From Geosiphon pyriformis uo1 (Eukaryota > Fungi > Glomeromycota): 48,989 bases of DNA. Position numbers and translations under genes: made by a program. The notes beneath the pieces are model-generated. The model was not told the DNA's origin and did not search any database. It saw only the letters and a program-made list of their open reading frames with translations. Position 1 is the stretch's first letter. Each line of letters begins with the position of its first letter. The stretch lies in assembly GCA_016748015.1 (NCBI GenBank), contig JAAOMT010000284.1:1-48989 (forward strand). The letters run 5' to 3'. Of this stretch, positions 15,907-48,180 are shown in pieces.

Positions 15907-16771
15907 TGTTACTCATAAAAAGAAAACAGATATAAAAAACAGCAGACCAATAAGAGAATAGTATTTAGCACATGAGCACATTGCTTAGCAATGTGGAGCA
16001 ATATCAGAAATTATAACACATTGCTCAGCAATATAGAGCAATGTCAGAAAACATGGCACATTGTTCAGCAATATGGAGTGATGTTAAAAAATTAGAGCAC
16101 ATTACTCAGCAATGTGAGCATTGCTTAAAAAATCATAGCACATCACTCAAAAATGTGAGCAATCTCATAGAACATTAATTATGTATATATAGCAGTAGCT
16201 TTAGAAGTAGAAAAAGCAGAATTTTTTAGTTAAAAATCTCTCATTCACAAATATTGAATAAATAAATTATTTACCATCCAAATCCACTCTTCACTATCAA
16301 CACTCCATGTTGATAGCAATTAATATTTAACTACACTGAAACAATAGCTCTTGATTATGGCTATTGATGGATACTAACTTGCACATTGCCTTGGCTTATT
16401 TCTTTATATCATTTCTTTTATTTTCTTGTCTTAATTGTTGTTATTACTAACTTTATTAAGAATTAACACATGGGATACTGACATCAGAATATAGCACTGG
16501 TAAAAGACCCAGAAATAAGAGTAGGACACTTGATTGAAGTTAGCTTACCAAAAAAAACACTGGCCATTACACTGAGAAAAAAATTGACAAAACTGCAGTT
16601 TCAGGAAGTTACAGATAAAACTATTACCACTGAATCTCTGTCCATTATACAAAAGACTCAACCAAAACCTTCAGATAAACACACTTTCAGATTGCCATCA
16701 TCGACAATAGTCTTGAGCACCAAGTTATGGGTTTGTTATTTACTCCAACAATCAAGTAAACACCTGTAACA
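15907..16771 (+). repeat. 5' LTR of C (865 bp)
   Basis: TGTTAC...GTAACA; direct repeat of 25183-26086. Confidence 0.93.
15978..16165. repeat. ~40-bp tandem array in U3 of the C 5' LTR (5 units)
   Basis: Consensus CACATTGCTCAGCAATGTGGAGCAATGTCAGAAAACATGG. Confidence 0.85.
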
Positions 16772-16773
16772 TT

Positions 16774-16790
16774 TAGTGCTCTCTGTAAGA
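16774..16790 (+). promoter_or_regulatory. Degenerate PBS of C (T[A]GTGCTCTCTGTAAGA)
   Basis: Starts 2 nt after the LTR; TGG has become TAG by a G>A change. Confidence 0.7.
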
Positions 16791-16831
16791 TATAATTTTA
16801 CAGAGAACCAGCACCAACAAATAAATCAACA

Positions 16832-22800: not shown

Positions 22801-23037
22801 ATTATAGAACACTTAGCAATTTATTGGGCAGTTATGAAATGGAGTGAATACTTGAGCCAGAAGTTTGATGTATACACAGACCACAAAGGATTAACAGCAC
22901 TTCATAAACAGGAATTTGGAAATAGAAGACAATCAAAATAGAAAATGGCACTATTACCATATACTTACACTATACATTATAAAAAGGGAAAAGACAATGG
23001 AAATGCTGACAGTTTGTTGTGAATAAGACAAATCTAA
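16832..23037 (+). pseudogene. gag-pol: gag-pol of C (extension, CA, knuckle, PR, Cys-rich, dUTPase, RT, RNase H)
   Basis: GTG at 16832; capsid from ATG 17843 (MAFAPITKLEKFTG); CHNCDKQNHFRANC; PR LILNSRS; dUTPase VGFDL/QLASRSSLA/IIDTGY/EKIAQAI/RGIQGFEST (~20870-21230); RT YLDNT; ends NADSLL*IRQI*. Confidence 0.9.
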
Positions 23038-23098
23038 AAACATCTCAACATAAAAATATAACAAAACCAGAACAAACCCAACAAAAATATAACAAAAG

Positions 23099-24479
23099 AT
23101 GAACATACAAAAATATCAACAACTACAACATTATATAAATACTCAACAGTTCAAGGAAAAATTATCTCAAAATAAGTGAAATAATATCAAACAACAATCA
23201 AAATATTTTATTAATTATAAAAATATACTTTACTAGAAAAACAGAAGAAATTCAGATCAACTAATAAGAGTCATCACAGAATTAGAGAAAGAGACAATAT
23301 TATTCAACATGTATTTAGATCTAACAGCAGGACATTTTTATAAAGAAGCAACCATGAAAAGAACCAGAAAAAGATACTATTGGCCATTAATGTATCCAGA
23401 TATCATTCAATATGTTTAGAATTGTAATGCTTGTTAGAGAAGAGATGGAACAAAACCCAGTGAACCATTAAGACCAATCAAAGTAGGACAACCATTCAAC
23501 CGTATTGGAATTGACTTAGTCGGACTATTAACAATCACTAGCAGAGGCAACAGATACATTGCAGTAATCATAAACTATCTTACAAAATGGCCAGAAGCAA
23601 AAGCCATTTAAAGAGCAGATGTAGAATTCATTGCCAAATTCGTCATCAAGATTTAATTTGTCGACATAGATGTCCAAAAAAACTATTATCAGATTAGAGA
23701 ACTCACTTTGTAAACAGAACATTAGCAAAATTAAGCCAAAGATTTGGAATAAAAAGACTATTATCATCACTATATCATCCACAAATAAATGGCTTAGTTG
23801 AAAGATTTAATAGAACACTGTGTGAAACAATTGCCAAAATCAGCCAAAAAAATCAGGATGAATGGGATTTGTTTATACCATCAGTATTATTTGCTTATCA
23901 GACAATGAAGCAAGATACCACACAAACAATACTATTTGAATTGGTATACAGTAGAACAGCAACATTACAGTTGAGATAGAGATCAATACATATCTAGCTG
24001 AACCAATAACAGAAGATAATTTCCAAGAAACATTGTTGAAAAGAACATATAACTTAATGGAAACACTAGAAAACAAATAATGGAAAGCAGCTGATAATAT
24101 CCAAAAGGCACAAGAAAAGCAAAAAAAACAACATGATAACCAACTAACAAATAAACCAATGGAATTCAAGATTAGAAACAAAGTACTATTACATCGTACC
24201 AAAGCAGAAAAACAATGGAGTGGAAAATTTGACCCCAAATGGGACAAACCATTTCACATAGAAGAAATTCTAGGAAATAGAGCTTATAAATTAAGATGAG
24301 ACAACAAAATCTTAGCCAAAGCAGCATATGGTGATCAACTAAAACCATATTACCAAATAGCATCATCATCTACCAATACTATTCCACAGTTGGGAGTACA
24401 AAGAATAATAGTTCAACCAGATAAGATTCCACGAGATCTGGAACCAATCATAGTTATTGAACTAAACACATTGAATTGA
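23099..24479 (+). pseudogene. Integrase of C (separate ORF)
   Basis: ATG at 23099 (MNIQKYQQLQHYINTQ), RIGIDLVGL, YLTKWPEA, YHPQINGLVERFN, KFDPKWD, LEPIIVIE. Confidence 0.88.
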
Positions 24480-24510
24480 ACAACCAAAAGAGTATATAAA
24501 GACACAGTAC

Positions 24511-25168
24511 ATGCGACAAAAGCAACCAAGAAAAATGGAAATACCAGATTACATTCACACCATAACTCAACAACTGTCCCAAACACTAAGTCAACAACAG
24601 TTAGACATAGAAATTGTCATCAACAACCAAACAATTTGCTATCAAAACAAAAAAAAAAGACAAAGAATATACCATATTAGCAGCTACCAAAGAATAATAA
24701 AAACTGAACAGATAACTTAATAGAAAAAGTGAAGAACACTTTTGGGAAAATACCTATTATGGCATTAACAGAAGAGCTTACAAAAGAAAATTGGAAACAA
24801 TAAATAGAACAACTTCCAATATTATATTGCTACTACCAATTAAGTCGAAAGTTGAATATTCAGGAGTTGTATATTAACAAATCCAAGAAAATATTCAACC
24901 AAGACATGATACAACAAATTGAAGAATTTATTGGAAAGAAAACTAATTCAACACTACATGTTAAAACAATGTACTAACTACACAACATATTTTAGAACTA
25001 TCCAGAAATACTGTTACACTCTGACATGGAAACCATAACCATTAACCAATGGGGAAGAATAAACAATACACAAGTAAAAGACGTAAAAAACAGAGTCAAA
25101 CAAACAATACTTGAAAAAGAAATATTAGAATTAATTCAAAACAAAAATTTTGATAGAGCTCAATATTA
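24511..25168 (+). pseudogene. ORF3 of C (unknown function; between IN and PPT)
   Basis: MEIPDYIHTITQQL...IEIVINNQTI...LYCYYQLSRKL...NFDRAQY* with internal stops; aligns by eye with ORF3 of D. Confidence 0.7.
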
Positions 25169-25182
25169 AAAAGAGGAGATAA
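25167..25182 (+). promoter_or_regulatory. Polypurine tract of C
   Basis: AAAAAGAGGAGATAA immediately precedes the 3' LTR. Confidence 0.8.
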
Positions 25183-26086
25183 TGTTACTCATAAAAAAAA
25201 AACAGATATAGAAAATAGCAGACCAATGAGAGAATAATATTTAGTACGTGAACACATTGCTCAGCAATGTGGAGCAATATCAGAAATCATGGCACATTGC
25301 TCAGCAATATGGAGCAATGTCAGAAAACATGGCACATTGCTCAACAATGTGGAACAATGTCAGAAAACATGGCACATTGCTCAGCAATGTGGAGCAATGT
25401 TAAAAAATTAGAGCACATCACTCAGCAATGTGAGCATTGCTCAAGAAATCATAGCACATTGCTCGGAAATGTGAGCAATTTTGTAAAACATCAATTATGT
25501 ATATATAGTGGTAGCATTAGAAGTAAAAAAAACAGAATCATTAGTTAGAAATCTCCTATTCACAAATATTGAATAAATAAATTATTTATCATCCAAATCC
25601 ACTCTTCACTATTAACACTCCATGTTGATAGCAATTGATACTTAACCACACTGGAATAATAGCTCTTGATTATGGCTATTGACAGATACTAACTTGTGCA
25701 TTGCCTTGGCTTATTTTTTTATGTCATTTCTTTTATTTTCTTGTCATAATTGTTGTTATTACTAACTCTATTGAAGATTAATGTGCGGGGTACTGACGTC
25801 AAGATATACTACTGGTAAAAGACTCAGAAATAAAGGTAGGACACTTGATTAAGATTAGCTTACCAGGAGAAACATTGGCCATCACACTAAGAAAGAAATT
25901 GAGAAAACTGTGGTTTTGGAAAGCTATGGATAAAACTATTACCACTGAATCTCTGTTCATTATACAAAGGACTCAACCAAAACTTTCAGATAAACACACC
26001 TTCAGATTGCCATCATTGACAACAGTCTTGAGCACCAAGTTATGGGTTTGTTATTTACTCCAATAATCAAGTAAACACCTATAACA
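25183..26086 (+). repeat. 3' LTR of C (904 bp; 6 units of the 40-bp array)
   Basis: Direct repeat of 15907-16771 with one extra array unit. Confidence 0.93.
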
Positions 26087-26161: not shown

Positions 26162-28005
26162 ATGGACTTGGACAACTACTCTGCCTTAATGGAATTTTTG
26201 GGTAAAGAACAATACCCATTAGAATACACTCAACAGCAAAGAAAACATTTATGTAAACAATCAAATTTCTATTTGATCCACCAAAACCAATTATATAAAA
26301 GAAACAAAAAAGATTCTGACTGCCTCCAAAGAGTTATCAGATTTGAAGAAAGAGAAATTGTAATATACAACATGCATACTGACCCATTAGCTAAACACTT
26401 TAGAAAAACAAAACCAATTTAGAAAACTTTAGCTTACTATTATTGGCCTATCTTAGGAAAGGACATTGCTAAATACATTAAAATCTGTGACATCTGTTAA
26501 AGAAGAGGCAAATCCAATCACAAAAAAGATATCCATTCAATTTCTGTTGGTCAACCATTTAACAGAATTGGTATAGATGTTGTTAGACCTTTAACAATAA
26601 CTTCTAATGGCAACAAATACATTATTACAGCTACTGACTATCTTACAAAGTAAGTAGAAGCAAGAGCCACTTCAGACCAAACAGCAGTCTTAATAGCCAA
26701 TTTTGTTTATGAAGATATCATCTGCCATCATGGCTGTCCAAAAAACTTTTATCTGATAGAGAAATAGTTTTTCTCAGTATACTGGTTAAAAAACTTTGTA
26801 GAAAAATGGGAATACATCATAAACTTTCTTCTCCTTACTACTCTCAAATAAATGGCTTAGTAGAACGTTTTAATAAAACACTATGTGAAACTCTAGCCAA
26901 AACCAGTGAAGAAACAAACTTATAGGACAAAGTACTGCCTTCAGCTTTGTTTGCTTATAAAACAGTGAATCATGACATAACAAGTTATGAACTTTTTTAT
27001 CTACTCTATGGATATATGGCAACACTACCAATAGAAATTAACATTAAAACAATACTCTTTGAAGAAATCACAATAAGAAATTATAAAAACATTTTGCAAA
27101 GAAGACTTGATAGCATTCTTGACTTCTTGATAGAAGCTTTTGAAAAGATAAAACAGTTCCAAAAAAAGCTTAAGAAAAAGAAAACCTATAAAACACTTTG
27201 GTGATTTGGTATTGGAATACTATTCTAACAGAGACAATGTTTATAGTGATAAATTCTTTAGCTGGTAAAAAGAACCCTTTTTAGTCAACAAAGTTTTGAA
27301 CAATAGTTTTTATATTCTTCAAGATCAATCTAAAACAATCTTCAATGATTGTCTTGTTTTTTTTTTTTGTTAATGTGTAGCCATATTGGTCTTTTTTTAA
27401 TTTAGCCATATTGGTCTTTTATTAGTTTAGTCACACTTAAAAAGCATGGCTTTTTCATAAAGCCAACTCACTCAGTACTCTAAAATACAAGATATGGCTA
27501 ACCACTAAGTAATTATGCCTAACTACATGCTAGTATAACCAGAAAACTTAAGGGGTATTACATTATTACATAAAGTAATTCTACTACTTAATACATTAAT
27601 CAATATTTTATTACAATGTGTGAATCTATTGCTTATTTTAATATTGGATTTGCCACTACCTTTATTACTATTCCTTGGCTTTTTGTGTATGCTGGCCAAT
27701 TGTAATAAATTTCTCTTAACTTTATTATCAATTTTCACTGATTTTTTCTATTCAGCTTGTAATTTGCAAAGTTTTCTCCATAATCTATTCCTCACTTGAG
27801 TCACTGCTCATTTACACACCTTAATTAAAACATTATTATTAGTCTTTTGATCAATATTAGCAAAAGCATTGATTCTTTCGAATTGCTCATTGATTAATCT
27901 GATTATCCTGTTGATGATATATAACTCAAAAAATATCATAAACAATCTGATTAGTTGTCTGTTGTGGTAATACCAACTCAAATGATTAGCAAAAATCAAG
28001 TATAA
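26162..28005 (+). pseudogene. Integrase of X (separate ORF), interrupted by a truncated LINE
   Basis: ATG at 26162 (MDLDNYSALMEFL...), RIGIDVV, DYLTK*VEA, INGLVERFN; the C-terminus resumes after 27900 (LKKYH...VVVIP). Confidence 0.85.
27359..27899 (-). mobile_element. 5'-truncated LINE (ORF2 C-terminus, 3' UTR, poly(A))
   Basis: Homologous to ~32454-32955 (LINEQF.RINAFANIDQ...GYTSM*); poly(T) on the + strand; imperfect 13-bp TSD TGATTGTCTTGTT (27346-27358) / TGATTATCCTGTT (27900-27912). Confidence 0.82.
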
Positions 28006-28009
28006 ATAA

Positions 28010-28620
28010 ATGCACTATTCCCAAAACAGAGGTATTTTAAATCAACATAAACAATTATTTTCTGGATCAAAACATTCAAAATGCTTTTTATACTCTCCAT
28101 AAGTATTGGATCTGACCATTGGAAAACAAACTATCATAACTGATAACAGTAGAATACATACTGTTATTAGACCAAAGAAAATTACTACCAGAAGAGAAAA
28201 AATTGGTAGCAAAATAGATAAATATCTATTGGAAAGTATAACAGCAGCTATACTCCCATCTTCCAGCACAATTGAAAAACCATTTCAAGAAATCTTATTC
28301 ATAGATAAAAACTTGTCATATAAAAGACAATTAGAATTCTATGGTTGCCTTGGAAAAATTATAGAAAATATAAAACTCATAAAAAAAACAACTTCAGAGA
28401 TACAGGCAGAAATTTTGGTTAGATGTTTCAAGAATTTTAACTATTGCTAAAAGAGCCAAAACTCTAATACAAAGATTTAGTTTCTTAGATACAAAATTCA
28501 TTTTTTCTCAAATATTATACATCTTATCTACCAAAGACTTCAATAAACTAGTTAGCTTTGAATTAAACAAAACTCTTCAAATAGATTATCCCATAAATAG
28601 CTTGATTTTGCTAAAGCTTA
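28010..28620 (+). pseudogene. ORF3 of X (unknown function)
   Basis: ATG 28010 is in frame with ORF 28106-28450 across one TAA. Blocks LDLTIGKQTI, LEFYGCLGKIIE, ILTIAKRAKTL and a degenerate DFA(G)A(Q) end precede the PPT. Confidence 0.6.
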
Positions 28621-28639
28621 ATCTTTTTGAAAAGAATGA

Positions 28640-29274
28640 TATTATGGTTAAAACCCATACTTTTTATTAGTTATCACATGTATTAGCTACTAATATCATA
28701 TAATTAGCCACCCTATTTTTAGATAGTAATTATTGACCTAATCATTGACCTGATTATTGATTACTTTTGATAGCTATATAAGCAATAAATCTTTTAGCTA
28801 TAGAAAAACATGTCAGAAATCAAAAAAATCAAATAAAAAAATAACAACTTTTATCTTAATCTTTTTCTTATTGCTAATTTCTCTTTTTCTATTTTTAAGT
28901 ATTCGAATATCTTAGGATAAAAGATTACTTTTTGGTTATTCCTTATCTTTTTCTGAAAACGTGTAATTGTAGTATTTAAAGATTATTGAATAAAATGTAA
29001 CTGAAGAATACATCTAATACCTAATATTGAATTCTAAGAGCACTAATGTGAAGCATAAAATTATACCAGTATGTAATTATTTATTGACAGTATGAACTAT
29101 TCCTCTATCTTCAGATTCTCTGGTTATCCTTGAAAAATATAGTGACTAAGATATTTTATGAGACTGATCTTGCACATTGAATCTATACTTATTCAATTCA
29201 CTCTTTGAAGTTAAACTCTCTTTGATTCTTTTCATTACCCTACAATTTTGTTTTCTCTTGCTATTAGTTAGCTT
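28640..29274 (+). repeat. 3' LTR of X (terminal ~16-20 bp missing at the insertion of an ORF1-only element)
   Basis: Starts T[A]TTATGGTTAAAACCCATA; homologous to 33820-34450 and 47415-48128; preceded by purine-rich GAAAAGAATGA. Confidence 0.85.
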
Positions 29275-31673
29275 TTTTTTGTTTTTTTTTTGTTAATATG
29301 TAGCCACGTTGATTGTTTATTAATTATGTTCACAGTAATATGGCACTTTTATAAAACCAGCTTACCCAATAATACAAAATCACAAAATGCAACTAATTAC
29401 AAATGGAAAGCCTTAACTACATGCTAGTACTATCTTTGCTATTTAATATATCAAACATATCTAATTTATACATCTTACCCATAATGCTAACAAGCTCATA
29501 ACTATTTTTAACCATACTACTTATCCACTTAGCAGTCTGATTAGGACTGAATTTAATACTGGAAGGCTGATTTTTCCAAAAATATATCATAACATTAAAG
29601 GTGTTATCATAAACTGAAAAATCTTTAACATTATTGTCATCATCATCAACCATGTCATCATTATCAGATGCATTCTCTAAGCAGACCCACTCACATTTTT
29701 TCTCAAAGTGTGTTATTTTTTTTTGCATCATGAAAGCAACAGCAGCCAAGTCTTTATTTTGCTTAGCCAACTCAGCCACACATTTTTTAACTAATGCATT
29801 CACAGCAGATAGAGTAAACAGCAATTTGGTAACCAACACAACCAGAGCACCAACAGATTCAACTAAGAATTTTATCAACACAGACAGTTTACTAAGATGG
29901 AATTCCAGAGAAGCCAACCTAAATTCAACAGCAATATTGAAAGCAAAAGAGACAACAGGCAACATAGGTGTTGTAGTTTTGGGGAGACCACCAAGATCCA
30001 AGTTCATTTCAGCAGCAGCAACAACAAAAAAAACCACAAAGGCAGCAGCTTTGGCATAAAATTTTGATCCAGCAAATGAAGGTTTGAAAACTCTGGAGCC
30101 ACCAGAAGTGTTAAAAGATAGTTTGGGTGGGAGAAAAGGTGATCTCTTATAGTCTATAGCCAAATAAGTCAAGTCTTGACACTTGTAGCAGTGGCAACAT
30201 TCAGAAGTTTTCCACCAAATGCAGCAACCACACAAAATACCAGTTTTTGAAACAACAGTATTCAAAGATTTCAAAGAATCAAAGATAATTACAGCAAAGC
30301 ATTAACATTGGTAAAATTCAGGAGAGTAAGGAATGAAACATGTATGGCCACCAATTTGAGAGACCAAATCACTTATCTCAAAGACAATACAGCCAAAGGA
30401 AAGATTAACCAACTTAGCCTTAAAAGTGTCTCTTGAAGAAATAACATTATTTTGGTTGACAACAAGGAGAATTTTAACACTGTCTTTTCTAACCAGCACA
30501 GACCAGTGAGTAAGAGCAGCAACAGCAAAAGAAGTGTTTTTGAAATGAACCACAGCATATTGCCATAAGCCAGCAGGCTTTAACTTAACAGAAATAACAA
30601 CACCAAAAATGCCAAGAGCAGATTTGATGTCATCAGAGAAGATACCCAAAGGTACATTATAAAGTACAACTGACAAAGGAAGAGAAGAAACAGAGGCCAT
30701 ATTAGAAAACCATGCAATCTTATGAGTAGTCAAAAAAATTTTATTACCAATGGCCACTTTGGTGGCACCATTTAGACTCTTCTAAAATGCAAATTTCACA
30801 CAGAACAACTTGACAGCATCTTGTGAAACAAACTTAATCCCAATACAACCAGGCAGCAACTGAAACAAGAAACTGAGCAAGGCCATCTTGATCTTAAATG
30901 TAGCACCAGATACAAGATTGAAGGCCACTCAACCAAAGAACTTTTGACAACCATTCACATTTTTCCAAGCATTACCATCAGCAGCACCAGAGATTAAGGG
31001 AGGAGTAGTTGATTCCATTTTCATCTAATCAGCCCAATCTTTGAGATTATCTGAAATAATAGGTTGTTTTACTACTGAGATTGGTGATAATCTACTAAAG
31101 AGTATCACATTAGACAACACAGCCAGTAGTTGATCTTGGCCCATCTTGGGAGATGTGCTGCTGTTGTTGTCATCCATATCAGGAAAAGGGCTGGCTGCTG
31201 CTGTGGAGATCTTACCAAAGATCTCATCTGGAACTACAAAGGAGTTTGGTGTAACCATAGCAGTTGTAACTGCCTGCTGCTGTTTTTTGGAATTTTTTGC
31301 TTTCACAGTCATTTGTGAAGCAGTAGAAATAGTAGTAGTAGTAGTAGAAGTGGTGAGAGTGGAAAAGACCAGTTTGTTAACTGGTCTGTTATTAAAAATC
31401 TTTGGGCTCTTAGAAGTAGTAGAGACAACACTGAGACTAACCCAAGTGTGTCTTTTGGAAGAAACTTTGACTGGAAAAGAACTACCAGCCAAAGGTAAAG
31501 CACTAATATTTTTTAAAAGAAATATAGCCAGAATGTTTTGTCTAGCTGTTTCAATAATTAAGAGACCCTCTTGTGTTGAAACTTTATTAGTTACTATAAG
31601 AAAAATAACATTTGCAACTTTTTTACTCTTAGCTCTAGTCATGGTCATAAAATTTAGAAGAGAAAAAGTTTTT
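29273..31673 (-). mobile_element. ORF1-only non-LTR element, copy 1 (~2.4 kb, HAL1-like)
   Basis: Poly(A) tail, LINE-type 3' UTR, one degraded ORF, no endonuclease or RT; possible short TSD TTAGCTT. Confidence 0.8.
29417..31648 (-). pseudogene. LINE ORF1-like nucleic-acid-binding protein (~740 codons)
   Basis: S/T-rich N-terminus; RRM-like blocks (SVVLYNVPLG...IKSALGIFGVVISVKL...QYAVVHF; FKAKLVNL); degenerate knuckle CYKCQDLTYLAID; coiled-coil and acidic tail; ends DSTSM*. Confidence 0.78.
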
Positions 31674-31680
31674 TTAGCTT

Positions 31681-34450: not shown

Positions 34451-35573
34451 CCATAATGCATACAAGTTCATAACTACTCTTAACAAGACCACTCATCTAT
34501 TTAGTAGTCTAATCTGGATCAGATTTGATATTAGAGAATTGAACTTCTCATAATTCCATCATCACATTAAATGTGTCATCATAGACTGAAAAATCTTTAA
34601 CATCATTATCATTATCTTTTTTTTCATCATCTATGTCTTCATCATCAGATATGTCAAAGTGGATCTTTCCACTCCTTAACTTAATGGCCCACACTTCCTT
34701 TTGCAGCACAAAAGCCACAGCATGAACAGCATTAATTTGGTTTTCCAATCCAATCACACTTTTCTTCATTGCCTCTGCCATAACAGGTGGAGTAGACAAT
34801 AATTTAGTAACCAACACAACCAAAAAACCCACAGGCTCAACTATAGATTTGATTAACAAAGACAGTTCACTAAGTTAGATTTTCAGAGAAGCCAACTTAG
34901 CATTAACAGCAACATCTGAACCAGAAGAGACAACAGGCAACAAAGGCACAACACCTTTGGAGGGGGCACCAAAAGCCAAATCTGTATTAGCAGCAGCAGC
35001 AACAGAAGGAACCACAAAGGTGACAGCTTTGGCATAAGATTTAGCTCCAACAAAGAATGACTTGAAGATATTAGAACTACTAACAGAATTAAAAAAAAGT
35101 TTGGGAGAAAGAAGTAGTAACACCTTGCAGTCCACAGCCAAATGATCCAAACTTTGACATCTGTAATAGCGACAGCATCTAGAAGTTTCTTACCAGATGT
35201 GACAGCTATGTAAGGTACCAGTTTTTGAAACAGCAGCATTCAAAAATTCCAAGGAATTAAAGGTCACCACAGCAAAGCATTGACATTGATAGAAATTAGG
35301 GGAGCAGAGAATGAAACATGTACAGCCATTAACTTGGGAGACCAGATTACTTATTTCAAATACAGTGCAGCCAAATTAAAGATTGACCAGCTTAGCTTTA
35401 AAAATGTCTCTTAAGAAGATAACCTCCTTTTGGTTGGCAATGAAGAGAATTCTAACACTGTTTTTTCTGACCAAAACAGACCAGTAAAAGAAAACAGTAG
35501 CAGCAGAAGAAGTGTTCTTAAAATTAACCACAGCATATTGCTATAAGTCAGCAGACTTTAACTTAACAGACGT

Positions 35574-36545
35574 TGTTACTGGAGGTTTTTAGTCTTTTTT
35601 CTGTAATGTTGTTGGTATCTGTTTGTTATGAATTCACATTTTCTGGATGTGGTTGAACTTTTAATAACTGAATTTTCTCTTCAAATTATCTTCTATAATT
35701 TGAACTGCTGGGCTTATAAGTGGAATGGCCAATTTCTTGCCAATTACTTTATGTAGTTACATTGTAATAAATGTCAACTCTTTCTCAGGAATTGCTCGTT
35801 TGAAAGCTCATTAAAAATGTGTAGTTACTTTGCTGTGAAAGTCAACTCTTCTACAGGAATTTTATCTGTAGGCTATTCTAATGATTGTAATAAAAAAAGA
35901 GAAGAAAAATAAAAGAAATGTAAAAGAAATAGAATTTTATCAAGGAAAACGTTTTCTATTTAGGCCTGGAGTCACTAACAGTTTATTGAAATTGGTAGCT
36001 AATCAATTTCAAAACATTAGTTGGGTTTTGAGAATTTTTCAAGTGCAATAATTAAAGAATTTGGTTTTTCAAATTATTTGATATTTATTTCTTTTTGTGT
36101 GTATGGGAATGGTTCTAAGTGACAAATCTAAAGTAAGATACATTTTCTTGAAGAGAAAAACTCTTCTTTTATACAACTTGTTGTAGTACTAGTCTATGAA
36201 CTTGCACTTTTTCTTTTTGCTCAAATTTTGGTGAATTAAAGATACATTTTGATGAACTACAAGTTATTTTGCTAAACTATTGATTAATTTGGGTGAACTA
36301 TTCATAATTTCGGCGAATTTCTGTAAATTTCGGCGAATTTTAGAATATTACAAAGTTTAGGGTATTGTGTAATTTGATCATCCTACTTTTTGTTATACTA
36401 ATTAGATTCTTTTAATTGAATTGTAATATGTGATAATTGATTAAATAATAAATAATAATTTGAAATGATATTAATATACTAATTAATTATAGGAATTATA
36501 AGGATAATTTCATGCTAATTAATAGCTAAAATTCTACTGGTAACA
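35574..36545 (-). repeat. 3' LTR of D
   Basis: Direct repeat of 44506-45477. Confidence 0.94.
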
Positions 36546-36558
36546 TAATCTCCTCCTC
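36546..36558 (-). promoter_or_regulatory. Polypurine tract of D (GAGGAGGAGATTA)
   Basis: Abuts the 3' LTR. Confidence 0.85.
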
Positions 36559-36645
36559 AAAACTGAGCTCTGTCAAAGTCCAAGCACTATTTGTAATATT
36601 GAGATAGTGATCCAAAATAATTGAAGTAATCTGGTCTAAAAATTG

Positions 36646-37233
36646 TTAAAATTTCAGTTCTGTGAGTTTGCCAATATATTGGATTTTTATTGGTTGCAAT
36701 ATTAGATTTTGTAGAACATTTTCACAAGTATTAAACAAATCATAGAGTCTAAAAGCTGCTCTAAGTTTGTAGTGAGTGTTTGTTGGTCCAGCTGCTGTTT
36801 TGAATTCATTGTGGATTTGTTTTTGTATAGCTTCAGGAGTGAGATTTGTTGCTTTAAGTTCCAGTTTTCGTTCATAAAGTGTTTTTCCAATGTAAAAGTA
36901 TTTATAGATAGAGGTGTGTTCATTGTTCTGTTTATTGAGAAGTAGTAAAAGTTTTTGTTGCATTGTAGCATTTGGTGGAATGTCAATAGGGGCAATTAAA
37001 AGATTTTCTTCTAGTGCTTGCTTCAAAAGTCTTGGTAACCTATTTTCAGAGTGACTTCTTGTTTTTCTTTTATAGAGGTGATAGTTCTGTGAATGATTTG
37101 CTATTGGGGCTGTGGTTTCTTTTTGAATGTAATTAATTTGACTTCCATTAATTGTTATGGATAAGTCAGGAAGTGTTTTTAAGGCTAACATTAACTTTTG
37201 GGATATTTGTTGAATATTTCGGGGAATAATCAT
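36646..37233 (-). CDS. ORF3 of D (195 aa open; probably extended to ~36557 originally); unknown function
   Basis: Sense ORF between IN and PPT with its own ATG; homologs at the same position in C and X; no signal peptide or TM segment is evident. Confidence 0.8.
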   Translation of the reverse strand: MIIPRNIQQISQKLMLALKTLPDLSITINGSQINYIQKETTAPIANHSQNYHLYKRKTRSHSENRLPRLLKQALEENLLIAPIDIPPNATMQQKLLLLLNKQNNEHTSIYKYFYIGKTLYERKLELKATNLTPEAIQKQIHNEFKTAAGPTNTHYKLRAAFRLYDLFNTCENVLQNLILQPIKIQYIGKLTELKF

Positions 37234-37380
37234 GATAAAATTGACTAATTATGAAAAGAGAAAATAAGGAAAATTATTTTTGGGGTATGGGGTTTTTATT
37301 TGTTTTTGGGTTTGGGTGTTTTTGTAATTTATTTACTATTTTTTTCTCTTTGTGTTTTTATTGGGGAATTATTGTAAAAT

Positions 37381-38766
37381 TTAAGTGTTCAAGTTTGGTT
37401 ATTGTTCTATTATAATTATTGGTTCTAAATTTCAGGGAATATCTTCAGGATTAATTAAAGGGGAATGTGTACCAATTTGCGGAATTAATGGTTCGGGATT
37501 GTTTCTGGAATGATAGTGTTTCAATCTGTCTTTATGTGCAATTTTTGCTAGTATTTTGTCATCAAGTCTTAACTTGTATAATCCATTGTCTAGAATTTCG
37601 TGAATATAAAATGGTCCATTCCATTTGTTTTCAAATTTCCCACTCTATTGTTTTTCAGCCTTAGTTCTGTGTAAGAGAACTTTATTTCCAACTTTAAATT
37701 CGTTGGTAATAGGTGGTAATTTGTTGTCATGTCTTTTTTTTTGTTGAGCTTGGGAATGTTCAATATGAGTTGCTGCTATTCTTTTTTTTCCTTCCAGTAT
37801 ACTAAGAAGGGTGTAAGCTCTTCTTTGGAGTGTTTCTTAAAAGTTTTCTTCATTAATTGGTTGCACTGAATATGTTTCTACTGTGAAATTAATTGGTAAT
37901 ATTGCTGTTCTTCTATAAGTAAGATCAAATGGTGTGTGTTTCATAGTATCTTGTTTTAGTGTTCTGTATGCTAATAACACTGATGGAATAAAGATATCCT
38001 ATTCCTGCTCAAAGTCTGTTGAGACTTTGGCTAGAGATTAACACAATGTTCTATTGAAACATTCTACAAGTCCATTTGTTTGAGGGTGATAAGGTGATGA
38101 TAGAGGTCTTTTGACATTGAACCATTCACAAATTTCTTGTATCAAGTTGTTCACAAAATGTGTTTCTTGATCAGATAAGAGTTCAATTAGGCATCCATGT
38201 CTACAGATAATGTTTTCATAGATGAAATTTGCTACTGATTTTGCATCTGCTCTTTGGATGGCTCTAGCTTCAGACCATTTGGTAAGATAATCTACTGCAA
38301 CTGCAATATAATGATTTTCTTGGGTTGTGATAGGTAATGGTCCGACTAAATCAATTCCAACTCTGTCAAAAGGTTGTCCAACTTTGATTGGATTTAAAGG
38401 TTCTGTGGGGCGAGTTCCTTCTCTTTTTTGACAACTATCACAAGATTCTACATATTGTCAAATATTTTTTTGCATGTAAGGCCAAAAATAATGTTCAAAA
38501 GTTTTTTGAATTATTCCATCTCTTCCCAAGTGTGCTGAAGAAGGATCTGTGTGCATGTTGTATAGAATTGTTTTTTTTTCATTTTTTTGTATTAATCTGA
38601 GTGGTTGGTCTGGGTTTTTACAATTTTTGTAATATATTTTGTTATGGTGTATAAAATATTGTTTGGATTGATGTTGTAATCGATGTTTTTCACTTGGAGA
38701 CCAATTTTCTGGTATAGTGAGAGTTTCCAAATAGTTTTTGATGTTGTTGTAATTTTCTGGATCCAT
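37381..38766 (-). pseudogene. Integrase of D (separate ORF)
   Basis: ATG at 38766 (MDPENYNNIKNYLETL), RVGIDLVGPL, DYLTKWSEA, SPYHPQTNGLVECFN, WNGPFYI; same 1386-bp span as the IN of B. Confidence 0.9.
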
Positions 38767-38834
38767 TGTTGGTAATCTTGTTGTTTTGTTCTGCTGTTAA
38801 GTTTGTTGGTGTTTTGTTGGTGTTGATGTTAGTA

Positions 38835-41800
38835 TTAATATTGTCTCATTCTTGAGAGGCTATCAACATTGGTGTATAGTTTTCTTGATTTGTGATGTAC
38901 AATCTATTGGTAATCTGCTAGGAAGTCATTCTATTGAGACTGTTTGGCACTTTGTTCAGTTTTTTTTTTATTAAGCCATTTGAGACCAATATTGTCAGTT
39001 ATTATGTCAAATTTTTTTCTATTCTTTAGATATTGTTGAAAGTATTTGAAAACCCAGATGACTGCAGCAGCTTCCAGTTCAGTTGAGCCATATTTGAGTT
39101 CTGTTGGCTTGAGTGTTCTACTGGCATAGGCAATAACTTGTTCCTGGCTATTTTAATCCAATTGTGATAAGATGACACCAAATGCTATGTGTAAAGCATC
39201 AGTGGCTAATTGAAATTGTTTGTTGAAGTCTGAGTAGACAAGAACTAGGGCTGTTGTCAATTTTGTTTTGAGAGTTTCAAAAGCTTTTTGTTGTTCTTCA
39301 GTCCATTTGTATGGTATGTTTTTGTTGGTAAGATAATTGAATAATTTAGCAATTTCTGAGAATTTTTTTATGAAATTTTTGATAGTAAGAGGCTAATCCT
39401 ATAAATCCTTTTAGTTCTGTAGTATTTTTGGAAGTTTGAAAGTTTTTGACAGCACTGATTGTTCTTGAATTTGGTTTGACTCTATCTTTACTAACTATGT
39501 ATCCAAGAAAGATCAAGCTTGTTTTTCTAAAGTGACATTTCTCAATGTTTAACTTTAATCCTGCTTTTCATAATCATTGAAAAACTTCTTGCAGGTAAAT
39601 GAGATGAGTCTCAAAGCTTGGTGAGTATACATCAGTGTCATCAAGATAGACAACTACTGATTGCCACAAGAGTCTTTCATATACAACATCCATAAGTCAC
39701 TGGAATGTTGCTGGTGCATTGCAGAGTCCAAAAAGCATAACATTGAACTCATAGTTTCCTCTTTGGGTGGTAAATGCTGTTTTGGGTCAATCTTTTGGGT
39801 CTATTTTGACTTGCCAGTATTCGCTTTCCAAGTCTAAAGTTGAAAAGAACTTGGCTTTTCCTAGAGCATCTAGCATGTCATTAATTCTTGGAAAAGGGTA
39901 GGCATCTCCAATTGTAACACTATTCAGTTGTCTATAATCAACACAGAATCTGATTTTTCCGTTTTTCTTTTTAACTAAAACTACTGGTGAGGCCCAAGGA
40001 CTTTTTGATGATTGAATCAATCCGTTATTGAGCATTCTTTGGACCTTTTCTCTTATGAATTGGTGGCTGGCAGGTGGTACTTAATAAGCTTGTTGACATT
40101 TTGGTGGAGCATCTTCTGTATGGATCTAATGTTGAACAATATCCGTTTTTCCCAAGTCATTGTTGTCTTTTACAAATATATCTGCAAATTCAGCTATCAA
40201 TTGTTTCAATTGTCTTTGTTGTTGAGGTTCTAAGGGACCCATGTTGATTTGAGAGAGTTTTTCCTCCAAAAAGTGGTAGTTTTCAGTAGTGAGAATGATA
40301 TTTGGATTTGGGAGTAGAGTGTGCCTTACAATTTCGATAAAATTAGAAACAATTTAAGGGTTTTTATCTTGAAAAATATTGCTGTGTATGATTCTAATCT
40401 CTAGTTTGTTTAATAAGACAATAGGGTAATTATTAAGGTTGTAGAATGTAACTCAAATTTTTTTCATTCTTTTGGAAATATAAATGTTTGGAATTGAGAT
40501 TTCATGCTTTAAACAGATTTGTTTATTGGATTTAAAGATTTGTTGTGTAGTGGTGGGTTTTGAGCAAGTGTAAATTTCGTGATGTTCTCCAAAAGGTGAA
40601 ATGGTAATTGGCTGGGGAAGTTGAAGAATCTGGTGAGATTCATTTTGTGTATTAAGAGCTATGTTTACTGGAACTGTAAATTGTCCAGTTGAACCAAAAC
40701 CTTGAGTTCCTCTTTCACTTTTTCCCAATTGTTTTCTGTTGTTTATTGATTGTAAACCCGAAATGTTGATTAAGAGTAAGTAGATTGCTTGAGCAATTTT
40801 TTCAGCATGTTCAATTTTGAATGGTTTGTCTGTCTCATTCTGCAACATGATGGTAATGTCTTTAGTGTATCCTGCATCTATAACTCCTTCTCTAATATTG
40901 ATTCCTTTGCTTGCCAATGATGATCTGGAGGCAATTTGAACCATTGCTCCTGGTAGAATTTCAAGAGCAATTTTGAGATTGATTTTTGTCAAGGACTTTG
41001 GTTAAAGAACCAAAGTATCTTTTCCTGGATATCTTAAGTCATATCCAGCATCAATTTCGTGTGCTTTTTCTGGTCTGATTCCTTGGCCATGGTTGTTAAA
41101 ATATTTAAGTTGTAGAGGTGGTTGCTTTTCAAGAAGATAGATGGAAATGGTTGGTAGTTTTTCTCTTAGTTTAGCTATTCCCAATTCGATTTCATTTTCA
41201 TCATTCTCATCTGGCAGAGGAATGCTAAGAGCATAACATTCTAAACACCATTGGTCGTCAAAAGGCATAATACATTCTTCACACAATTGAATGTTTATTT
41301 GCTCTAATTGTTAAATTTGAGCTTCTTTGGTCGAATATGTAAGGCTTGTAATTTGGTGGTAGATTTCTACTTCATCTTTATAATCAAATCCAGCTAATTC
41401 TATGATATACTCAATATATTCAGCTTCTTTCATTTGGTGGACATCTTCTTGGGTGGCTCTATTGATCAATGCCATTGCTAGGTCAAAAATTATTTCAGCA
41501 TCATAAGGGTAGTGGTAAAATTTATTGAGAGCACTGTTGTATGTTGCATCAAATAGTGTTCCTCTTCTGACTTTTTCCGAAATTGATAGAGCATATTGAC
41601 AGGTTTGATCACATACTTCTCCTCTCATTGCTATATTAATCCAATTGTATTCTTTTGGTAGCATTTCTCCACATGTAAGGCAAGGAGTTTTGTCCCATTT
41701 TTCACTTCTCTTTGGGGATCCAAATCGTTCTCTATGGCATGCCTTGCAGAAGTAACAAGTACAAGTTTCATATTCCTCTTCTGGGGAGATACAGGCTCCC

Positions 41801-44460
41801 ATAGATGAAAGCTTCTTTTTGCAATCTTTGCATTTTAGTGGAATGTATGGTGGTTTTTTTCATGGTTCTGGTGTGAAATATCTAACTTTCTTCCATCCTC
41901 TTGATTCTTCAAAAATCTCTTGTTCTGTTTCCTCAGCCCAATTAGATGGTAATCCAAGAGCTATGTAGGTTTCAATGAGTGGCATTTCCTTCTCTTTTTC
42001 AAATTCAAATACTGGAGCTTTTTCTGATTATTTGTTAAAGGTACCACAGGTTGCAGGTATGATGGTATATTGTCCTTGGTATGAGATTTTAAGTTCTTGA
42101 GTTTCCCAGTTTAGGTTTGCATTGGCCTTAAGAAGCCAATCATTTCCGACTAGAGCTTGATATTGGGGTGCATCTATGACAAGAACTTTAACTGAAATGG
42201 TGATTCCATCAATTGTAAAGGGGAAATTATCAATTTCTCCTACTGAAGTCTTCTTCATACCATCAGCTATAACAATAACTGTTTGAGCTGGTCTATCTAC
42301 GTTTCGTTTGAGTTGTTGCATCAGCTGGTAAGTAATGATACTTCCAGCCAATCCACTATTTAAGATTAAGCAAATGGGTTTTCCTTCTACTGTAGCTTCT
42401 GTATACATAGCAGTAATTGCTTTCTGTTCATTGACTGCTGCATTACTAAGCAGAAATGATGATTTATTTGCTTCAAATTCAAATGGAAATATATCTAACA
42501 GATTGGCATTTTGGGCAATTTGAGCTGGTGGAATGGTATGGTTGGAAGAGTTTGATCTTAGTGCTGCAACTTCATCTTCAGAAAGTGCAGTTTGTTGAAA
42601 ATCCGATTCCTCTGGTATTGTAAGATAACTGAATTGAGTGTGATAGTGATTGGGTCTTTGCTGACCAGGATTTCGGGAAACCAATTGGTTATTTAAATTA
42701 ATTCTGTTGTGGTTACTCTGCAATTGATTTTGGGGTGTAAATTGGTTATGTTGAACCAATCTTCTTGCTGGTACTTGATATTGTTAAGTGAGTGGTGTCT
42801 GATATGGCTGAATTGGTAAAGGTTGCTGATATTGTTGCTGCATTGGTTGTGGAGCTGGTGGATAGTAACTGTTTTGATTTTGTGGTCTTGGTGAATAATA
42901 GATTGGTGGTGGAGATTGGTAATAAGATTGTTGTGGTGAAGAGTAACATTGATTACTCCTGTTTTGTTGGTCTCTTTGTAATTTCCTACAATCTCGTTTC
43001 CAGTGTCTTGGAATTCCACAATAATGACAATTTTAAGGTTGGTTGTTGGATGGTGATCCAAAATTGTTTTGATTGCAGCATTGTGGGGGTTGATATCTTT
43101 GTGGTTGTTGTTGCTGTTGTTGTTGGTTTGTGAAGTAGCTTTCAACTTTTTTTGTGAGTTGGTCTATCTTTTCTTCAGCTGCTAAGCTGGTTTCTTCAAT
43201 TGCAAGGTTTACAAGCTTGGTGTGATTTGCTTCTTCTATTGCTATTTTATAGCTCTTTACATGTCTAATAGCAGTTGCTAAGTCTGCTGAAGCTTGTGGA
43301 CAAACTTTCTTAATCAGTTTGTCTTTTAACCCTGCTATAAACTAATCCAGAATTTGAGCATCAGAATAGTAGTTATTGGTTTCCAATTGTCAGATTCATC
43401 TGAGAAGTTTGTTAAATCTTCCAAAATAGGTCATAACAGTTTCAGATGTTTTTTGTTTAATATTGCGAAAGCAGTTTCTGAAAGTGATAGAGGTATTGTT
43501 GTCAGTGAATTGTTGTAGAAAAGCATCTTTGAATGCTTGCCAGTTTTCAAATGGTTCTTCTAAATTTTCAAACCATTCTTCTGCTGTTCCTTGGAGAAAG
43601 TAGGGAATTGCTTTAAGCATTCTTGCTGCAATTCAACCATTTGCATCTCCTGCTTTTTGAACTTTGTCAAGCCATTTTTGAGAACTAGTATTATTGTCTT
43701 CGCCAGTAAATTCTGGGATTTTTGCAATGTAAGCAGTTGCCATTTCTTCTTCATTTTCTGTAATTTCTTCTGGTTCTGATTCAGTTTCTTCACTTTCTAA
43801 GCTTTCTGAATGATTACTTTCGTTTTCCTGTAAGTAATCAATAATATTGGCACTTGTTGATATTGGTTCCTGCTGTTGAGTAGGGTTTCTAGGTGACTGA
43901 AAATTTTCTAGTCTGGAGAAGCAGTTGAGTGATGAATTTGGTGTTTGTGGTTGAACAAGTGAAATTGAAAATGGTGTAATAGAAAGTGGTAATTTGACAT
44001 TGGTTTTTTGTTCAGGTGTTCACAAGTGTTTGGCAGTTGTTTTTTGTAATGTTGGAGTGTTTAAAGTGGTTCTTGAGTATTGTTTTACTTTTTGTTTGCC
44101 TTTGTTGCTTGTCTCTGTTTCTGATTCAAAGTTAAAAGAGTATTTGGACTGTACTGGGTATTTTTCTTCACAGTACTCAATAATATTAAAATTAAGTTCT
44201 TGGAAGTAGGTAGCAAGTGTTTTACTGTTCAGTTCTTCTGTTCCTAATTGTGAATAGTGCACTAAATTATTGTAGAGGTTGCTTTTAACTTCTAAAATGT
44301 TGTAGTTTCCAAAAAAATAATTGTTGATGCAGTTTTCAATGTATTGGTATACTGATTTCTTTACAACTTCAATTCCGTCTGGAATGTTAAATCTTTGTTT
44401 GCAGTGAGTGTAAATTGACTGGTAATACTCTAGAATTGCTGTGTTTGGTGTGGTCGCCAC
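38835..44460 (-). pseudogene. gag-pol: gag-pol of D (gag and PR in the same frame; dUTPase ~40685-41100)
   Basis: Fragments carry CA, knuckle, PR (LILNSG), Cys-rich domain, dUTPase (AGYDL, IASRSSLA, VIDAGYT, KIAQA, RGTQGFGSTG), RT (SPWASPVVLV, YLDD) and RH ending HTNVDSLSRMRQY*. Confidence 0.92.
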
Positions 44461-44485
44461 TTTGAATTTGTTGTTGCTGTGTTAT

Positions 44486-44503
44486 TTCCGTAAGAGAGCA
44501 CCA
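44486..44503 (-). promoter_or_regulatory. PBS of D (TGGTGCTCTCTTACGGAA)
   Basis: Starts 2 nt after the 5' LTR. Confidence 0.82.
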
Positions 44504-44505
44504 AA

Positions 44506-45477
44506 TGTTACCAGAGGTTTTTGGTCTCTTTTTTTGAATGTTGTAACTGTCTGTTGGTTGCAAATTCACGTTTTCTGGATGTGGTTAAACCTTCAGTAAC
44601 TGAATTTTTTCTTCAAATTATCTCTTATAATTTGAACTGCTGGGCTTATAAGTGAAATGGCCAATTTCTTGCCAGTTACTTTATGTAGTTACATTGTAGT
44701 AAATGTCAACTTTTTTCCAGGAATTGCTCATCTGAAAGCTCACTAAAAATGTGTAGTTACTTTGCTGTGAAAATTAACTCTTCTACAGGAATCTTGTCTG
44801 TAGGCTACTCTAATGATTGTAATAAGAAAAGAGAAGAAAAATAAAAGAAATGTAAAAGAAATAGAATTTTATCAAGGAAAACGTTTTCTATTCAGGCCTG
44901 GAGTTACTAACAGTTTACTGAAATTGGTAGCTAATCAATTTCAAAACGTTAGTTGGGTTTTAAGGATTTTTCAAGTGCAATAATTAAAGAATTTGGTTTT
45001 TCAAATTATTTGATATTTATTTTTTTTTGTGTATATGAGAATAGTTCTAAGTAACAAATCTAAAGTAAGATACATTTTCTTGAAGAGAAAAACTCTTCTT
45101 TTATATAACTTGTTGTAGTACTAGTCTATGAACTTGCACTTTTTCTTTTTGCTTAAATTTTGGCAAACTAAAGATATATTTTGATAAACTACAAGTTATT
45201 TCGCTGAACTATTGATTAATTTGGGTGAACTATTTATAATTTCAGCGAATTTCTGTAAATTTCGGCAAATTTTAGAATGTTACAAAGTTTAGGGTATTGT
45301 GTAATTTGATCATCCTACTTTCTGTTATACTAATTAGATTCTTTTAATTGAATCGTGATATGTGATAATTGATTAAATAATAAATAATAATTTGAAATGA
45401 TATTAATATACTAATTAATTATAGAAATTATAAGAGTAATTTCATGCTAATTAATAGCTAAAATTCTATTGGTAACA
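44506..45477 (-). repeat. 5' LTR of D
   Basis: TGTTACC...GGTAACA, 972 bp. Confidence 0.94.
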
Positions 45478-48128: not shown

Positions 48129-48134
48129 TAAAAG

Positions 48135-48151
48135 TGGTGCTTCCTGTAAGG
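48135..48151 (+). promoter_or_regulatory. PBS of X2 (TGGTGCTTCCTGTAAGG)
   Basis: TGG start 6 nt after the LTR end. Confidence 0.8.
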
Positions 48152-48180
48152 TTGTCAAAGTTTACTTATTCTCTTATTGT

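What the first reader, a model, noticed from the sequence alone, without database searches (positions are those of the whole stretch)
36557..37280. Conserved non-Env ORF3 in the env position of three LTR families
Seen: ORF3 of D (195 aa still open), C (24511-25168) and X (28010-28620) share ordered blocks. These are LSITINGSQI / IEIVINNQTI / LDLTIGKQTI; IYKYFYIGKTL / LYCYYQLSRKL / LEFYGCLGKII; KLRAAFRLYDLF / VKTMY*LHNIF / LTIAKRAKTL; IQYIGKL / INQWGRI. A terminal DFDRAQF* / NFDRAQY* / DFAKA* motif sits just before the PPT, reached in D only via a frameshift. The protein is basic and looks helical, with no signal peptide or TM segment. Upstream of the D ATG is a polypyrimidine tract plus TAG (37245-37280, acceptor-like); upstream of the C ORF is TATATAAA (24493-24500). 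Inference: this is an accessory protein, possibly for nucleic-acid binding, anti-silencing, transactivation or nucleus-to-nucleus movement in a coenocytic host.
Basis: partly seen in the sequence, partly recalled or inferred. Interest (0 to 1): 0.8.

Follow-up and report, generated by a model that had tools for sequence, protein, structure and literature searches.

The report
Fungal retrotransposons carry an extra gene
Several jumping-gene families in a soil fungus carry an extra, conserved, non-envelope gene just before their right end, which likely makes a nuclear protein that would bind the element's own control region and keep it switched on; that job is untested.

Summary
The extra ORF is real. 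D and C are decayed ~10-kb Ty3/gypsy elements and X is a truncated one; each has an ORF3 between integrase and the polypurine tract (PPT). Each ORF3 has 11-207 relatives, and those with listed names are Geosiphon pyriformis hypothetical proteins.

D-C homology is significant and bridged by further lineages at 18-36% identity, including two unnamed metagenome proteins. The helical core is under purifying selection. X's homology is NOT shown: it rests on position, size and helix order.

The 'terminal motif' is a nucleotide element: it is read in three different frames and is non-coding in three ORF3-less relatives. The protein is not basic overall.

It is soluble, not Env and not a chromodomain. 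TATA boxes lie 42 and 46 nt before the C and X starts, suggesting an internal promoter.

Best guess (40%): a nuclear DNA-binding activator or anti-silencing factor acting on family-specific LTR repeat arrays, working like foamy-virus Tas or plant VANC. Extra ORF3s are known in plant and rotifer LTR elements; I found none described for this fungal lineage.

The parts
35574..45477 (-). Element D: full-length decayed Ty3/gypsy (gag, PR, dUTPase, RT/RH, INT, ORF3), LTRs 92.9% identical, 4-bp target duplication with one transition
36526..37233 (-). ORF3 of D in the family frame (235 codons, runs through the PPT into U3); premature stop at 36648-36646 in this copy
37245..37280 (-). Pyrimidine tract ending in AG upstream of D ORF3; possible splice acceptor (inferred, untested)
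36564..36577 (-). Conserved pre-PPT nucleotide motif of D (phase 2 in the ORF3 frame)
36546..36558 (-). PPT of D
35574..36545 (-). 3' LTR of D with U3 repeats and a TATA box at 36173-36166
15907..26086 (+). Element C: decayed full-length Ty3/gypsy, LTRs 88.7% identical
24493..24500 (+). TATA-like octamer 42 nt before the C-family start codon; candidate internal promoter
24535..25169 (+). ORF3 of C (family protein 211 aa; this copy has a frameshift and several stops), ends before the PPT
25149..25162 (+). Pre-PPT nucleotide motif of C (phase 0)
25183..26086 (+). 3' LTR of C with a 40-bp palindromic U3 repeat array (about 25250-25490) and a TATA box at 25500
28001..28008 (+). TATA-like octamer 46 nt before the X-family start position
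28047..28670 (+). ORF3 of X (family protein 218 aa; start codon mutated and two frameshifts in this copy), runs through the PPT into U3; homology to D and C not shown
28607..28620 (+). Pre-PPT nucleotide motif of X (phase 2)
28640..29277 (+). 3' LTR of X with 12-bp U3 repeats and a TATA box at 28775

Best explanation
ORF3 is a conserved, soluble, non-envelope accessory gene of a fungal Ty3/gypsy lineage, and it likely encodes a nuclear DNA-binding regulator that would bind the element's own LTR repeats to activate it or shield it from silencing. SHOWN: the gene sits between integrase and PPT; it is homologous across D, C and further lineages; its helical core is under purifying selection; it has no TM segment. 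PREDICTED: an N-terminal helix plus beta-hairpin, a disordered basic linker, a compact helical core with a helix-turn-helix-like Gly/turn/basic helix (residues 133-167), and an acidic tail. INFERRED: expression apart from gag-pol, from an internal TATA promoter in C and X and possibly by splicing in D; nuclear import through the basic linker; sequence-specific binding to the family-specific U3 arrays. The gene being real and selected is about 95% likely; the confidence given is for the DNA-binding regulator mechanism.
For: Gene and selection: hundreds of copies (207, 11 and 100 hits). Collinear homology at 18-36% identity among lineage representatives. Fixed differences between the two D subfamilies: 5 in 93 core residues against 14 in 27 linker residues, p 2e-7; they are more conservative than rare within-family changes, p 0.012. 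Own promoter: TATAWAWR lies 42 nt (C) and 46 nt (X) before the family start. The same octamer class is in 9 window LTR copies, and chance is about 0.4% per 10-nt window. Locus L003 also has one 46-48 nt before an ATG. Anatomy: linker 39-65 has net +3 to +5 and helix 151-168 net +2 to +4 in 8 of 8 representatives; the tail has net -2 to -7 in 7 of 8. A Pro-Tyr pair is kept in the linker in 6 of 8 (the likeness to a PY-type import signal is recalled). The AF2 core is confident. Candidate targets: U3 repeat arrays of 20 bp (A/D), 40 bp palindromic (C), 12 bp (X) and 9-mer repeats (L003), unrelated between families. ORF3 diverges faster than integrase (D-C about 20% against 52%). Host pressure: CpG o/e is 0.15-0.17 and LTR mismatches are 64 of 69 and 93 of 98 transitions.
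Against: No sequence or profile link to any DNA-binding family. DUF3102 and DUF1016_N gave z of 1.1 or less, while those two families match each other at z 8.3. The region upstream of ORF3 shares no motif with its own U3 in 4 of 4 elements, as Tas-type autoregulation might predict. D has no upstream TATA. The ATG after the L003 TATA opens only 25 codons with no significant match to either profile (52 and 127 of 300 shuffles score as well). The X TATA overlaps the presumed integrase stop region. ORF3-less L004 and L006 also have short 2-3-copy U3 repeats. The Pro-Tyr pattern is missing in one C-type lineage (0 of 6) and in X (0 of 5), and is found in only 13 of 39 D1 copies. The acidic tail of D and X may be a by-product of reading the PPT. 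The protein is not basic overall.
Confidence: 0.4

Rival explanations
1. ORF3 binds RNA rather than DNA: it suppresses small-RNA silencing or coats the element's genomic RNA. In the strong form it is a captured coat protein of a filamentous plant-type virus.
For: The closterovirus coat cluster (PF01785) was the top hit by language-model features for two members only about 28% identical: 0.93 with 154 of 256 features shared and 0.91 with 138. Phage translation-repressor clusters follow at 0.87-0.89. Gypsy elements are a main source of small RNAs in Rhizophagus irregularis (bioRxiv 10.1101/2021.03.30.436303, passages).
Against: Both feature counts are below the 170 that 9 in 10 true family hits share, and the second query had low recognition (2119). 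No Closter_coat match at E up to 2 in 32 of 32 members. No coat protein among the PDB sequence hits at E up to 10. Gag with nucleocapsid-type function is already encoded by these elements.
Confidence: 0.22
2. ORF3 is a protein-interaction adaptor that counters a host restriction factor or tethers integrase to chromatin, working like Bet or Vif, or as a stand-in for a chromodomain.
For: Near-neutral overall charge. Conserved positions are mostly hydrophobic or aromatic. The elements have no chromodomain after integrase and carry dUTPase. C-to-T changes occur in all contexts with a 5'-T bias (0.30 after T against 0.06 after G), compatible with a deaminase-like pressure.
Against: No partner is identified. 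The conserved basic helix after a turn and the family-specific U3 arrays are not explained. The mutation pattern affects both strands after insertion and could be methylation-driven.
Confidence: 0.22
3. ORF3 moves element particles or cDNA between nuclei in the shared cytoplasm, an Env substitute for a coenocytic host.
For: Env position only; the coenocytic host is established knowledge (recalled).
Against: No TM segment. A shared cytoplasm needs no entry protein (inference). Related elements without ORF3 have intact gag and pol (L004, L006).
Confidence: 0.08
4. The ORF3s are not one family: X (and L003) captured unrelated helical genes in the same slot. This rival concerns homology, not function.
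For: No significant similarity of X or L003 to D and C. Rotifer LTR elements captured several unrelated ORF3 types (PMC5408684, passages).
Against: Same size, slot and TATA spacing; same predicted order of helix, hairpin and helices (the X model has pLDDT 40 only). The wide HMM ranks X and L003 above 96-99 of 100 shuffles. The L003 ORF is the top hit among 26 locus ORFs, E 0.015.
Confidence: 0.3

Closest known systems
Ty3/gypsy (Metaviridae) LTR retrotransposons with non-Env ORF3: bdelloid rotifer Juno/Vesta elements (PMC5408684) and plant 3' additional ORFs (PMC11728184)
   Same: An extra ORF between pol and the 3' LTR; family-specific and missing from some branches; several rotifer lineages also carry dUTPase; some plant additional-ORF proteins have predicted nuclear signals and unknown function.
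   Different: Those ORF3s are GDSL esterase, DEDDy nuclease, TM/Env-like or plant-domain proteins and are described as expressed from spliced messages. This one matches no Pfam family at cut-off, has no TM, occurs in a fungus, and has a TATA box in front in C and X.
Foamy-virus Tas/Bet locus (PMC12789967, passages)
   Same: Works-like analogy: an accessory gene near the 3' LTR with an internal promoter. The same review notes that nef and sag overlap U3, as D and X ORF3 do.
   Different: No sequence relation was tested or seen; there is no env gene; no element shared between the internal promoter region and own U3; transactivation is untested.
VANC anti-silencing proteins of Arabidopsis VANDAL transposons (PMC5735166, abstract)
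   Same: Works-like analogy: a TE-encoded, fast-diverging protein; family-specific tandem repeats in non-coding DNA; a methylating host lineage.
   Different: VANC belongs to DNA transposons of plants. No homology was tested, and DNA binding and demethylation are untested here.
DUF3102 / DUF1016_N helical domains
   Same: Similar order of helices by eye and a short shared aromatic-x-x-Ile-Gly-x-x-Leu stretch; weak listings.
   Different: Profile-profile tests are not significant.

Membership tests
Ty3/gypsy LTR retrotransposon (host elements) | LTRs TG...CA, PBS, PPT, target duplication, PR-RT-RH-INT order | tested here: met
Env / Env-like ORF3 | Located between pol and 3' LTR | tested here: met
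Env / Env-like ORF3 | Transmembrane anchor or signal-peptide-like hydrophobic stretch | tested here: not met
   max 19-residue Kyte-Doolittle mean 0.44-1.32 in 10 of 10 proteins; no dedicated signal-peptide predictor was available
Env / Env-like ORF3 | Match to a fusion-glycoprotein family | tested here: not met
   no Env family among listed Pfam matches; one isolated herpesvirus UL37 glycoprotein hit at E 0.015 in 1 of 32 members
Chromodomain (chromovirus) | Chromo PF00385 fused to integrase | tested here: not met
   no match in ORF3s; positive control L002 matches at E 8.7e-8
Closterovirus coat protein PF01785 | Sequence match to the family | tested here: not met
   not among the families listed for 32 members at E up to 2 (first 25 of 37 shown); not
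Closterovirus coat protein PF01785 | Flexuous-virus coat fold | tested here: inconclusive
   language-model lead
DUF3102 / DUF1016_N | Significant profile-profile similarity | tested here: not met
   z of 1.1 or less against control z 8.3; local hhalign prob up to 4%
Helix-turn-helix DNA-binding proteins | HTH geometry matching a solved domain | tested here: inconclusive
   a 57-residue SigmaF fragment aligns whole to model residues 103-166 at rmsd 2.4, Z 4.6, tied with unrelated rows
Foamy-virus Tas-like transactivator (works-like) | Internal promoter before the accessory gene | tested here: inconclusive
   TATA at -42 (C), -46 (X), -46/-48 (L003, weaker); none in D; no transcript data
Foamy-virus Tas-like transactivator (works-like) | Response element shared by internal promoter and LTR | tested here: not met
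   0 of 4 own-family comparisons exceed shuffles; decayed copies limit power
Foamy-virus Tas-like transactivator (works-like) | Binds and activates the LTR | not testable with these tools
   needs EMSA and a reporter assay
VANC-like anti-silencing (works-like) | Family-specific tandem target repeats in non-coding DNA | tested here: inconclusive
   arrays in A/D, C, X and L003 LTRs, but short repeats also in ORF3-less L004 and L006
VANC-like anti-silencing (works-like) | Sequence-specific loss of DNA methylation | not testable with these tools
   needs a methylome with and without ORF3

The most novel reading that the evidence does not exclude
A fungal LTR-retrotransposon lineage has evolved a complex-retrovirus-like regulatory circuit. 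An internally promoted accessory protein with an undescribed helical DNA-binding domain co-evolves with family-specific U3 repeat arrays, switches on or demethylates its own family, and helped drive the LTR burst of Geosiphon. A bolder but less likely form (about 7%) is that the gene is a captured filamentous-virus coat protein.
Probability: 0.25. Interest if true: 0.8.

Novelty: new variant of a known kind. Interest (0 to 1): 0.45.

Why it matters
Geosiphonaceae and Ambisporaceae underwent striking LTR expansions (PMC11952901, passages), in a lineage where a relative methylates TEs and makes small RNAs from them (bioRxiv 10.1101/2021.03.30.436303, passages). A selected accessory gene kept across many element lineages is a concrete, testable candidate for how these elements escaped silencing. 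It would give fungi a counterpart of Tas or VANC and possibly a new sequence-specific DNA-binding domain. Practically, it re-annotates several hundred 'hypothetical' G. pyriformis genes as transposon ORF3 copies. It also exposes a pre-PPT nucleotide element shared with distant chromoviruses.

Tried and rejected
Genome and expression: no whole genome is held, so there was no DNA-level dN/dS and no genome-wide count; selection was tested at protein level instead. The run search returned no RNA holder listed, which is no evidence either way.

Folds: the D model (pLDDT 75) gave no Foldseek match at E up to 0.001 in viral or PDB libraries. The best VIA Z was 5.2 (wide) and 6.1 (second look, a designed protein). 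No flexuous plant-virus coat appears among the top 50 rows of each list; a filamentous archaeal-virus capsid chain appears at Z 4.4, tied with unrelated rows. This shows neither a new fold nor exclusion. The N-terminal module was barely tested. The X model (pLDDT 40) was too poor to search. The homodimer prediction gave no verdict (score 0.01).

Families: Pfam, PHROGs, NCBIfam and PDB sequences gave nothing at a curated cut-off. The most frequent weak hit was phrog_23683 of unknown function, in 12 of 32 members, all D-type, best E 4e-4. DUF3102 and DUF1016_N were rejected as proven relatives; DUF6192 was not tested.

Other scans: viral contigs gave no relatives or motif (could not run). The pre-PPT motif has no special RNA stability (z -1.25 to +1.78 in 8 of 8) and no Rfam family. 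A weak HMM hit at 32645-32761 lies in an AT-rich LINE-end repeat and was rejected. The idea that element A lost ORF3 was rejected: a nested LTR interrupts A at 3701 and its ORF3 would lie off the window. Earlier scan findings: none returned.

Literature: searches found no description of this ORF. The G. pyriformis genome paper was not in the results and was not read; no supplements were read, and TE libraries there could bear on novelty.

Full report
SETTING. The window is a nest of decayed retroelements. No genome is held. All 120 listed hits to the D ORF (207 of 324 candidates passed), 11 of 11 hits to C and 100 of 100 hits to X are named Geosiphon pyriformis hypothetical proteins. The source is therefore most likely that fungus or a close relative (inference). 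D (35574-45477, minus) and C (15907-26086) are full-length Ty3/gypsy elements with TG...CA LTRs, PBS, PPT, 4-bp target duplications and PR-dUTPase-RT/RH-INT. X is a 5'-truncated integrase-ORF3-LTR piece. Element A, a D relative, is interrupted at 3701 by a nested LTR, so its ORF3 is off the window.

THE OBSERVATION. Family members fix the true extents: D 235-239 aa from ATG 37233 (the window copy has a premature stop), C 211 aa from 24535, X 218 aa from 28047. D-C homology is significant (BLASTP E 7e-6; hhalign 72%, E 3.4e-5). A D+C profile found 72 proteins among 1.84 billion representatives. I looked up 19 of the 72: 17 are G. pyriformis and 2 (P0159, P0163) are unnamed full-length metagenome proteins. 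A D-only HMM scores four of these lineages at 33-73 bits and intact C at 14, against shuffle maxima of 4-8; one C-type lineage (P0182) scored -3.5. The tree shows about eight lineages, with the metagenome proteins closer to D than C is. X is not significantly similar to D or C and is borderline against the wide HMM. Its case rests on slot, size, TATA spacing and a low-confidence helix order.

TWO CORRECTIONS. (1) The terminal motif is nucleotide, not peptide. 66 of 66 full-length D-family proteins read through the PPT into U3, and 0 of 66 and 0 of 18 218-aa X proteins end in the motif. It ends the protein in C-type families; I picked 14 such proteins by eye, so that count is not a test. A scan of metagenome contigs for motif plus PPT plus LTR start gave 6 loci. 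In L001, L004 and L006, related gypsy elements with no ORF3, the motif is non-coding, 20-47 nt after the start of the integrase stop. In chromovirus L002 it is read in a third frame; L005 shares that 3' end. In L003 it ends an ORF3-like frame. (2) The protein is not basic overall: net -2 and 0 for subfamily majority residues, pI 5.4-5.9 in metagenome members, against 9.8 for the truncated window copy. The excess in decayed copies probably comes from loss of the acidic tail and from G-to-A changes (inference).

SELECTION. DNA of other copies was unavailable, so I tested proteins: 82 of the 120 listed D-family proteins (200-245 aa), 39 D1 and 43 D2. Of 174 well-defined columns 42 are fixed differences: 5 in the 93-residue core against 14 in the 27-residue linker (p 2e-7). 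They are more conservative than 267 rare within-family changes (BLOSUM 0.21 against -0.34, p 0.012). Collinear open frames at 18-36% identity cannot persist neutrally (inference). ORF3 diverges with, but faster than, pol. For D1-D2 it is 64% against 76% for integrase and 69% for RT/RH; for D-C about 20% against 52% and 50%. On an 8-sequence integrase tree the four window elements group apart from the ORF3-less loci (support 100), but decay and small sampling could drive this. ORF3 is thus optional in the wider lineage.

ANATOMY. The AF2 model (pLDDT 75, pTM 0.62) shows an N-terminal helix and beta-hairpin, a disordered linker (40-63), a confident helical core (about 89-190) and a long C-terminal helix. 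No member has a TM segment. The linker and helix 151-168 are basic in 8 of 8 representatives and the tail is acidic in 7 of 8. Helix 133-148, a turn with Gly in most lineages and an invariant Asn, and basic helix 153-167 look helix-turn-helix-like (interpretation). Language-model leads were closterovirus coat (0.93, 0.91) and, below 0.9, DUF6192, DUF3102 and DUF1016_N. I fetched 42 DUF3102 and 78 DUF1016_N sequences and found no significant profile link, while those two families match each other at z 8.3. Fold and complex results are given under Tried and rejected.

EXPRESSION AND TARGET CLUES. TATAWAWR lies 42 nt (C) and 46 nt (X) before the family start. It is not enriched in the window as a whole (41 against 36 expected), a 10-nt window holds one about 0.4% of the time, and it marks 9 LTR copies. 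L003 has one 46-48 nt before an ATG, but that ATG needs a frameshift and its 25 codons match no profile. D has none and has an acceptor-like tract instead. U3 regions carry family-specific arrays: 20 bp (A/D), palindromic 40 bp (C), 12 bp (X) and 9-mer repeats (L003). ORF3-less L004 and L006 have shorter 2-3-copy repeats too, and no motif is shared between the ORF3 upstream region and its own U3 in 4 of 4. The elements are heavily CpG-depleted and hit by transitions.

MECHANISM. I commit to a nuclear, sequence-specific DNA-binding activator or anti-silencing factor made from its own transcript (0.40). The gene, its selection and its solubility are shown; the fold is predicted; promoter use, nuclear import, DNA binding and effect are inferred. 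Rivals are an RNA-binding silencing suppressor or coat (0.22, of which captured viral coat about 0.07), a protein adaptor (0.22) and a movement factor (0.08). Separately, there is a 0.3 chance that X and L003 are unrelated captures.

KNOWN SYSTEMS AND NOVELTY. Non-Env ORF3s are known in rotifer (PMC5408684, passages) and plant LTR elements (PMC11728184, passages). Works-like analogues are foamy-virus Tas (PMC12789967, passages) and VANC (PMC5735166, abstract and outline); it is not shown to be a member of either family. Passages of a fungal LTR survey (PMC3248453), an AMF TE survey (PMC11952901) and an R. irregularis TE study (bioRxiv 10.1101/2021.03.30.436303) mention no such ORF. Eight searches found no description. 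The G. pyriformis genome paper and all supplements were not seen. Verdict: a real, apparently undescribed accessory gene family in a known slot, with function untested; new variant of a known kind, interest 0.45.

Noticed in passing
window 36577-36564, 25149-25162, 28607-28620; L001:1239, L002:365, L003:713, L004:1436, L005:1133, L006:5056: A nucleotide motif (pattern TTCGMNGGAGCTYA) just upstream of the PPT. All 6 of 6 metagenome matches of motif plus PPT plus LTR start sit at apparent LTR-element 3' ends, including chromovirus-type L002/L005. It is read in three frames or non-coding, so it is likely a cis element for plus-strand priming or 3'-end processing.
   Followed up: partly
window 45477/35574, 15907/26086, 33820/34450, 3701, 47415: 4-bp target duplications. 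5 of 6 LTR starts examined are preceded by a 4-mer ending in AT (CCAT three times, ACAT, ATAT), suggesting a target-site preference.
   Followed up: partly
LTR pairs of D and C: Mismatches are 93-95% transitions in all contexts (CpG 0.62, CpA 0.19, CpC 0.17, CpT 0.20) with a 5'-T bias. This is not the CpA preference of classical RIP (recalled).
   Followed up: partly
window 40453-41001 (D), 20504-21628 (C): dUTPase between protease and RT in ORF3-bearing elements. The ORF3-less L006 pol has no dUTPase match, so the two gains may co-occur, as in rotifer lineages.
   Followed up: partly
window 44020-44481, 48127-48774; L006:5971-6700; L003:1269-1928: A long N-terminal region before the Gag core, with a Cys-pair and Trp-rich motif in L003 and L006 and no Pfam match at cut-off; possibly a second accessory domain.
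   Followed up: no
window 29417-35570, 45483-47385: Nested LINE-like elements with poly(A) ends, split by D and by X-family solo LTRs.
   Followed up: no
L003 and L006: Contigs run 3' end, LTR, PBS, gag: circularly permuted or tandem, compatible with collapsed LTRs or 1-LTR circles.
   Followed up: no
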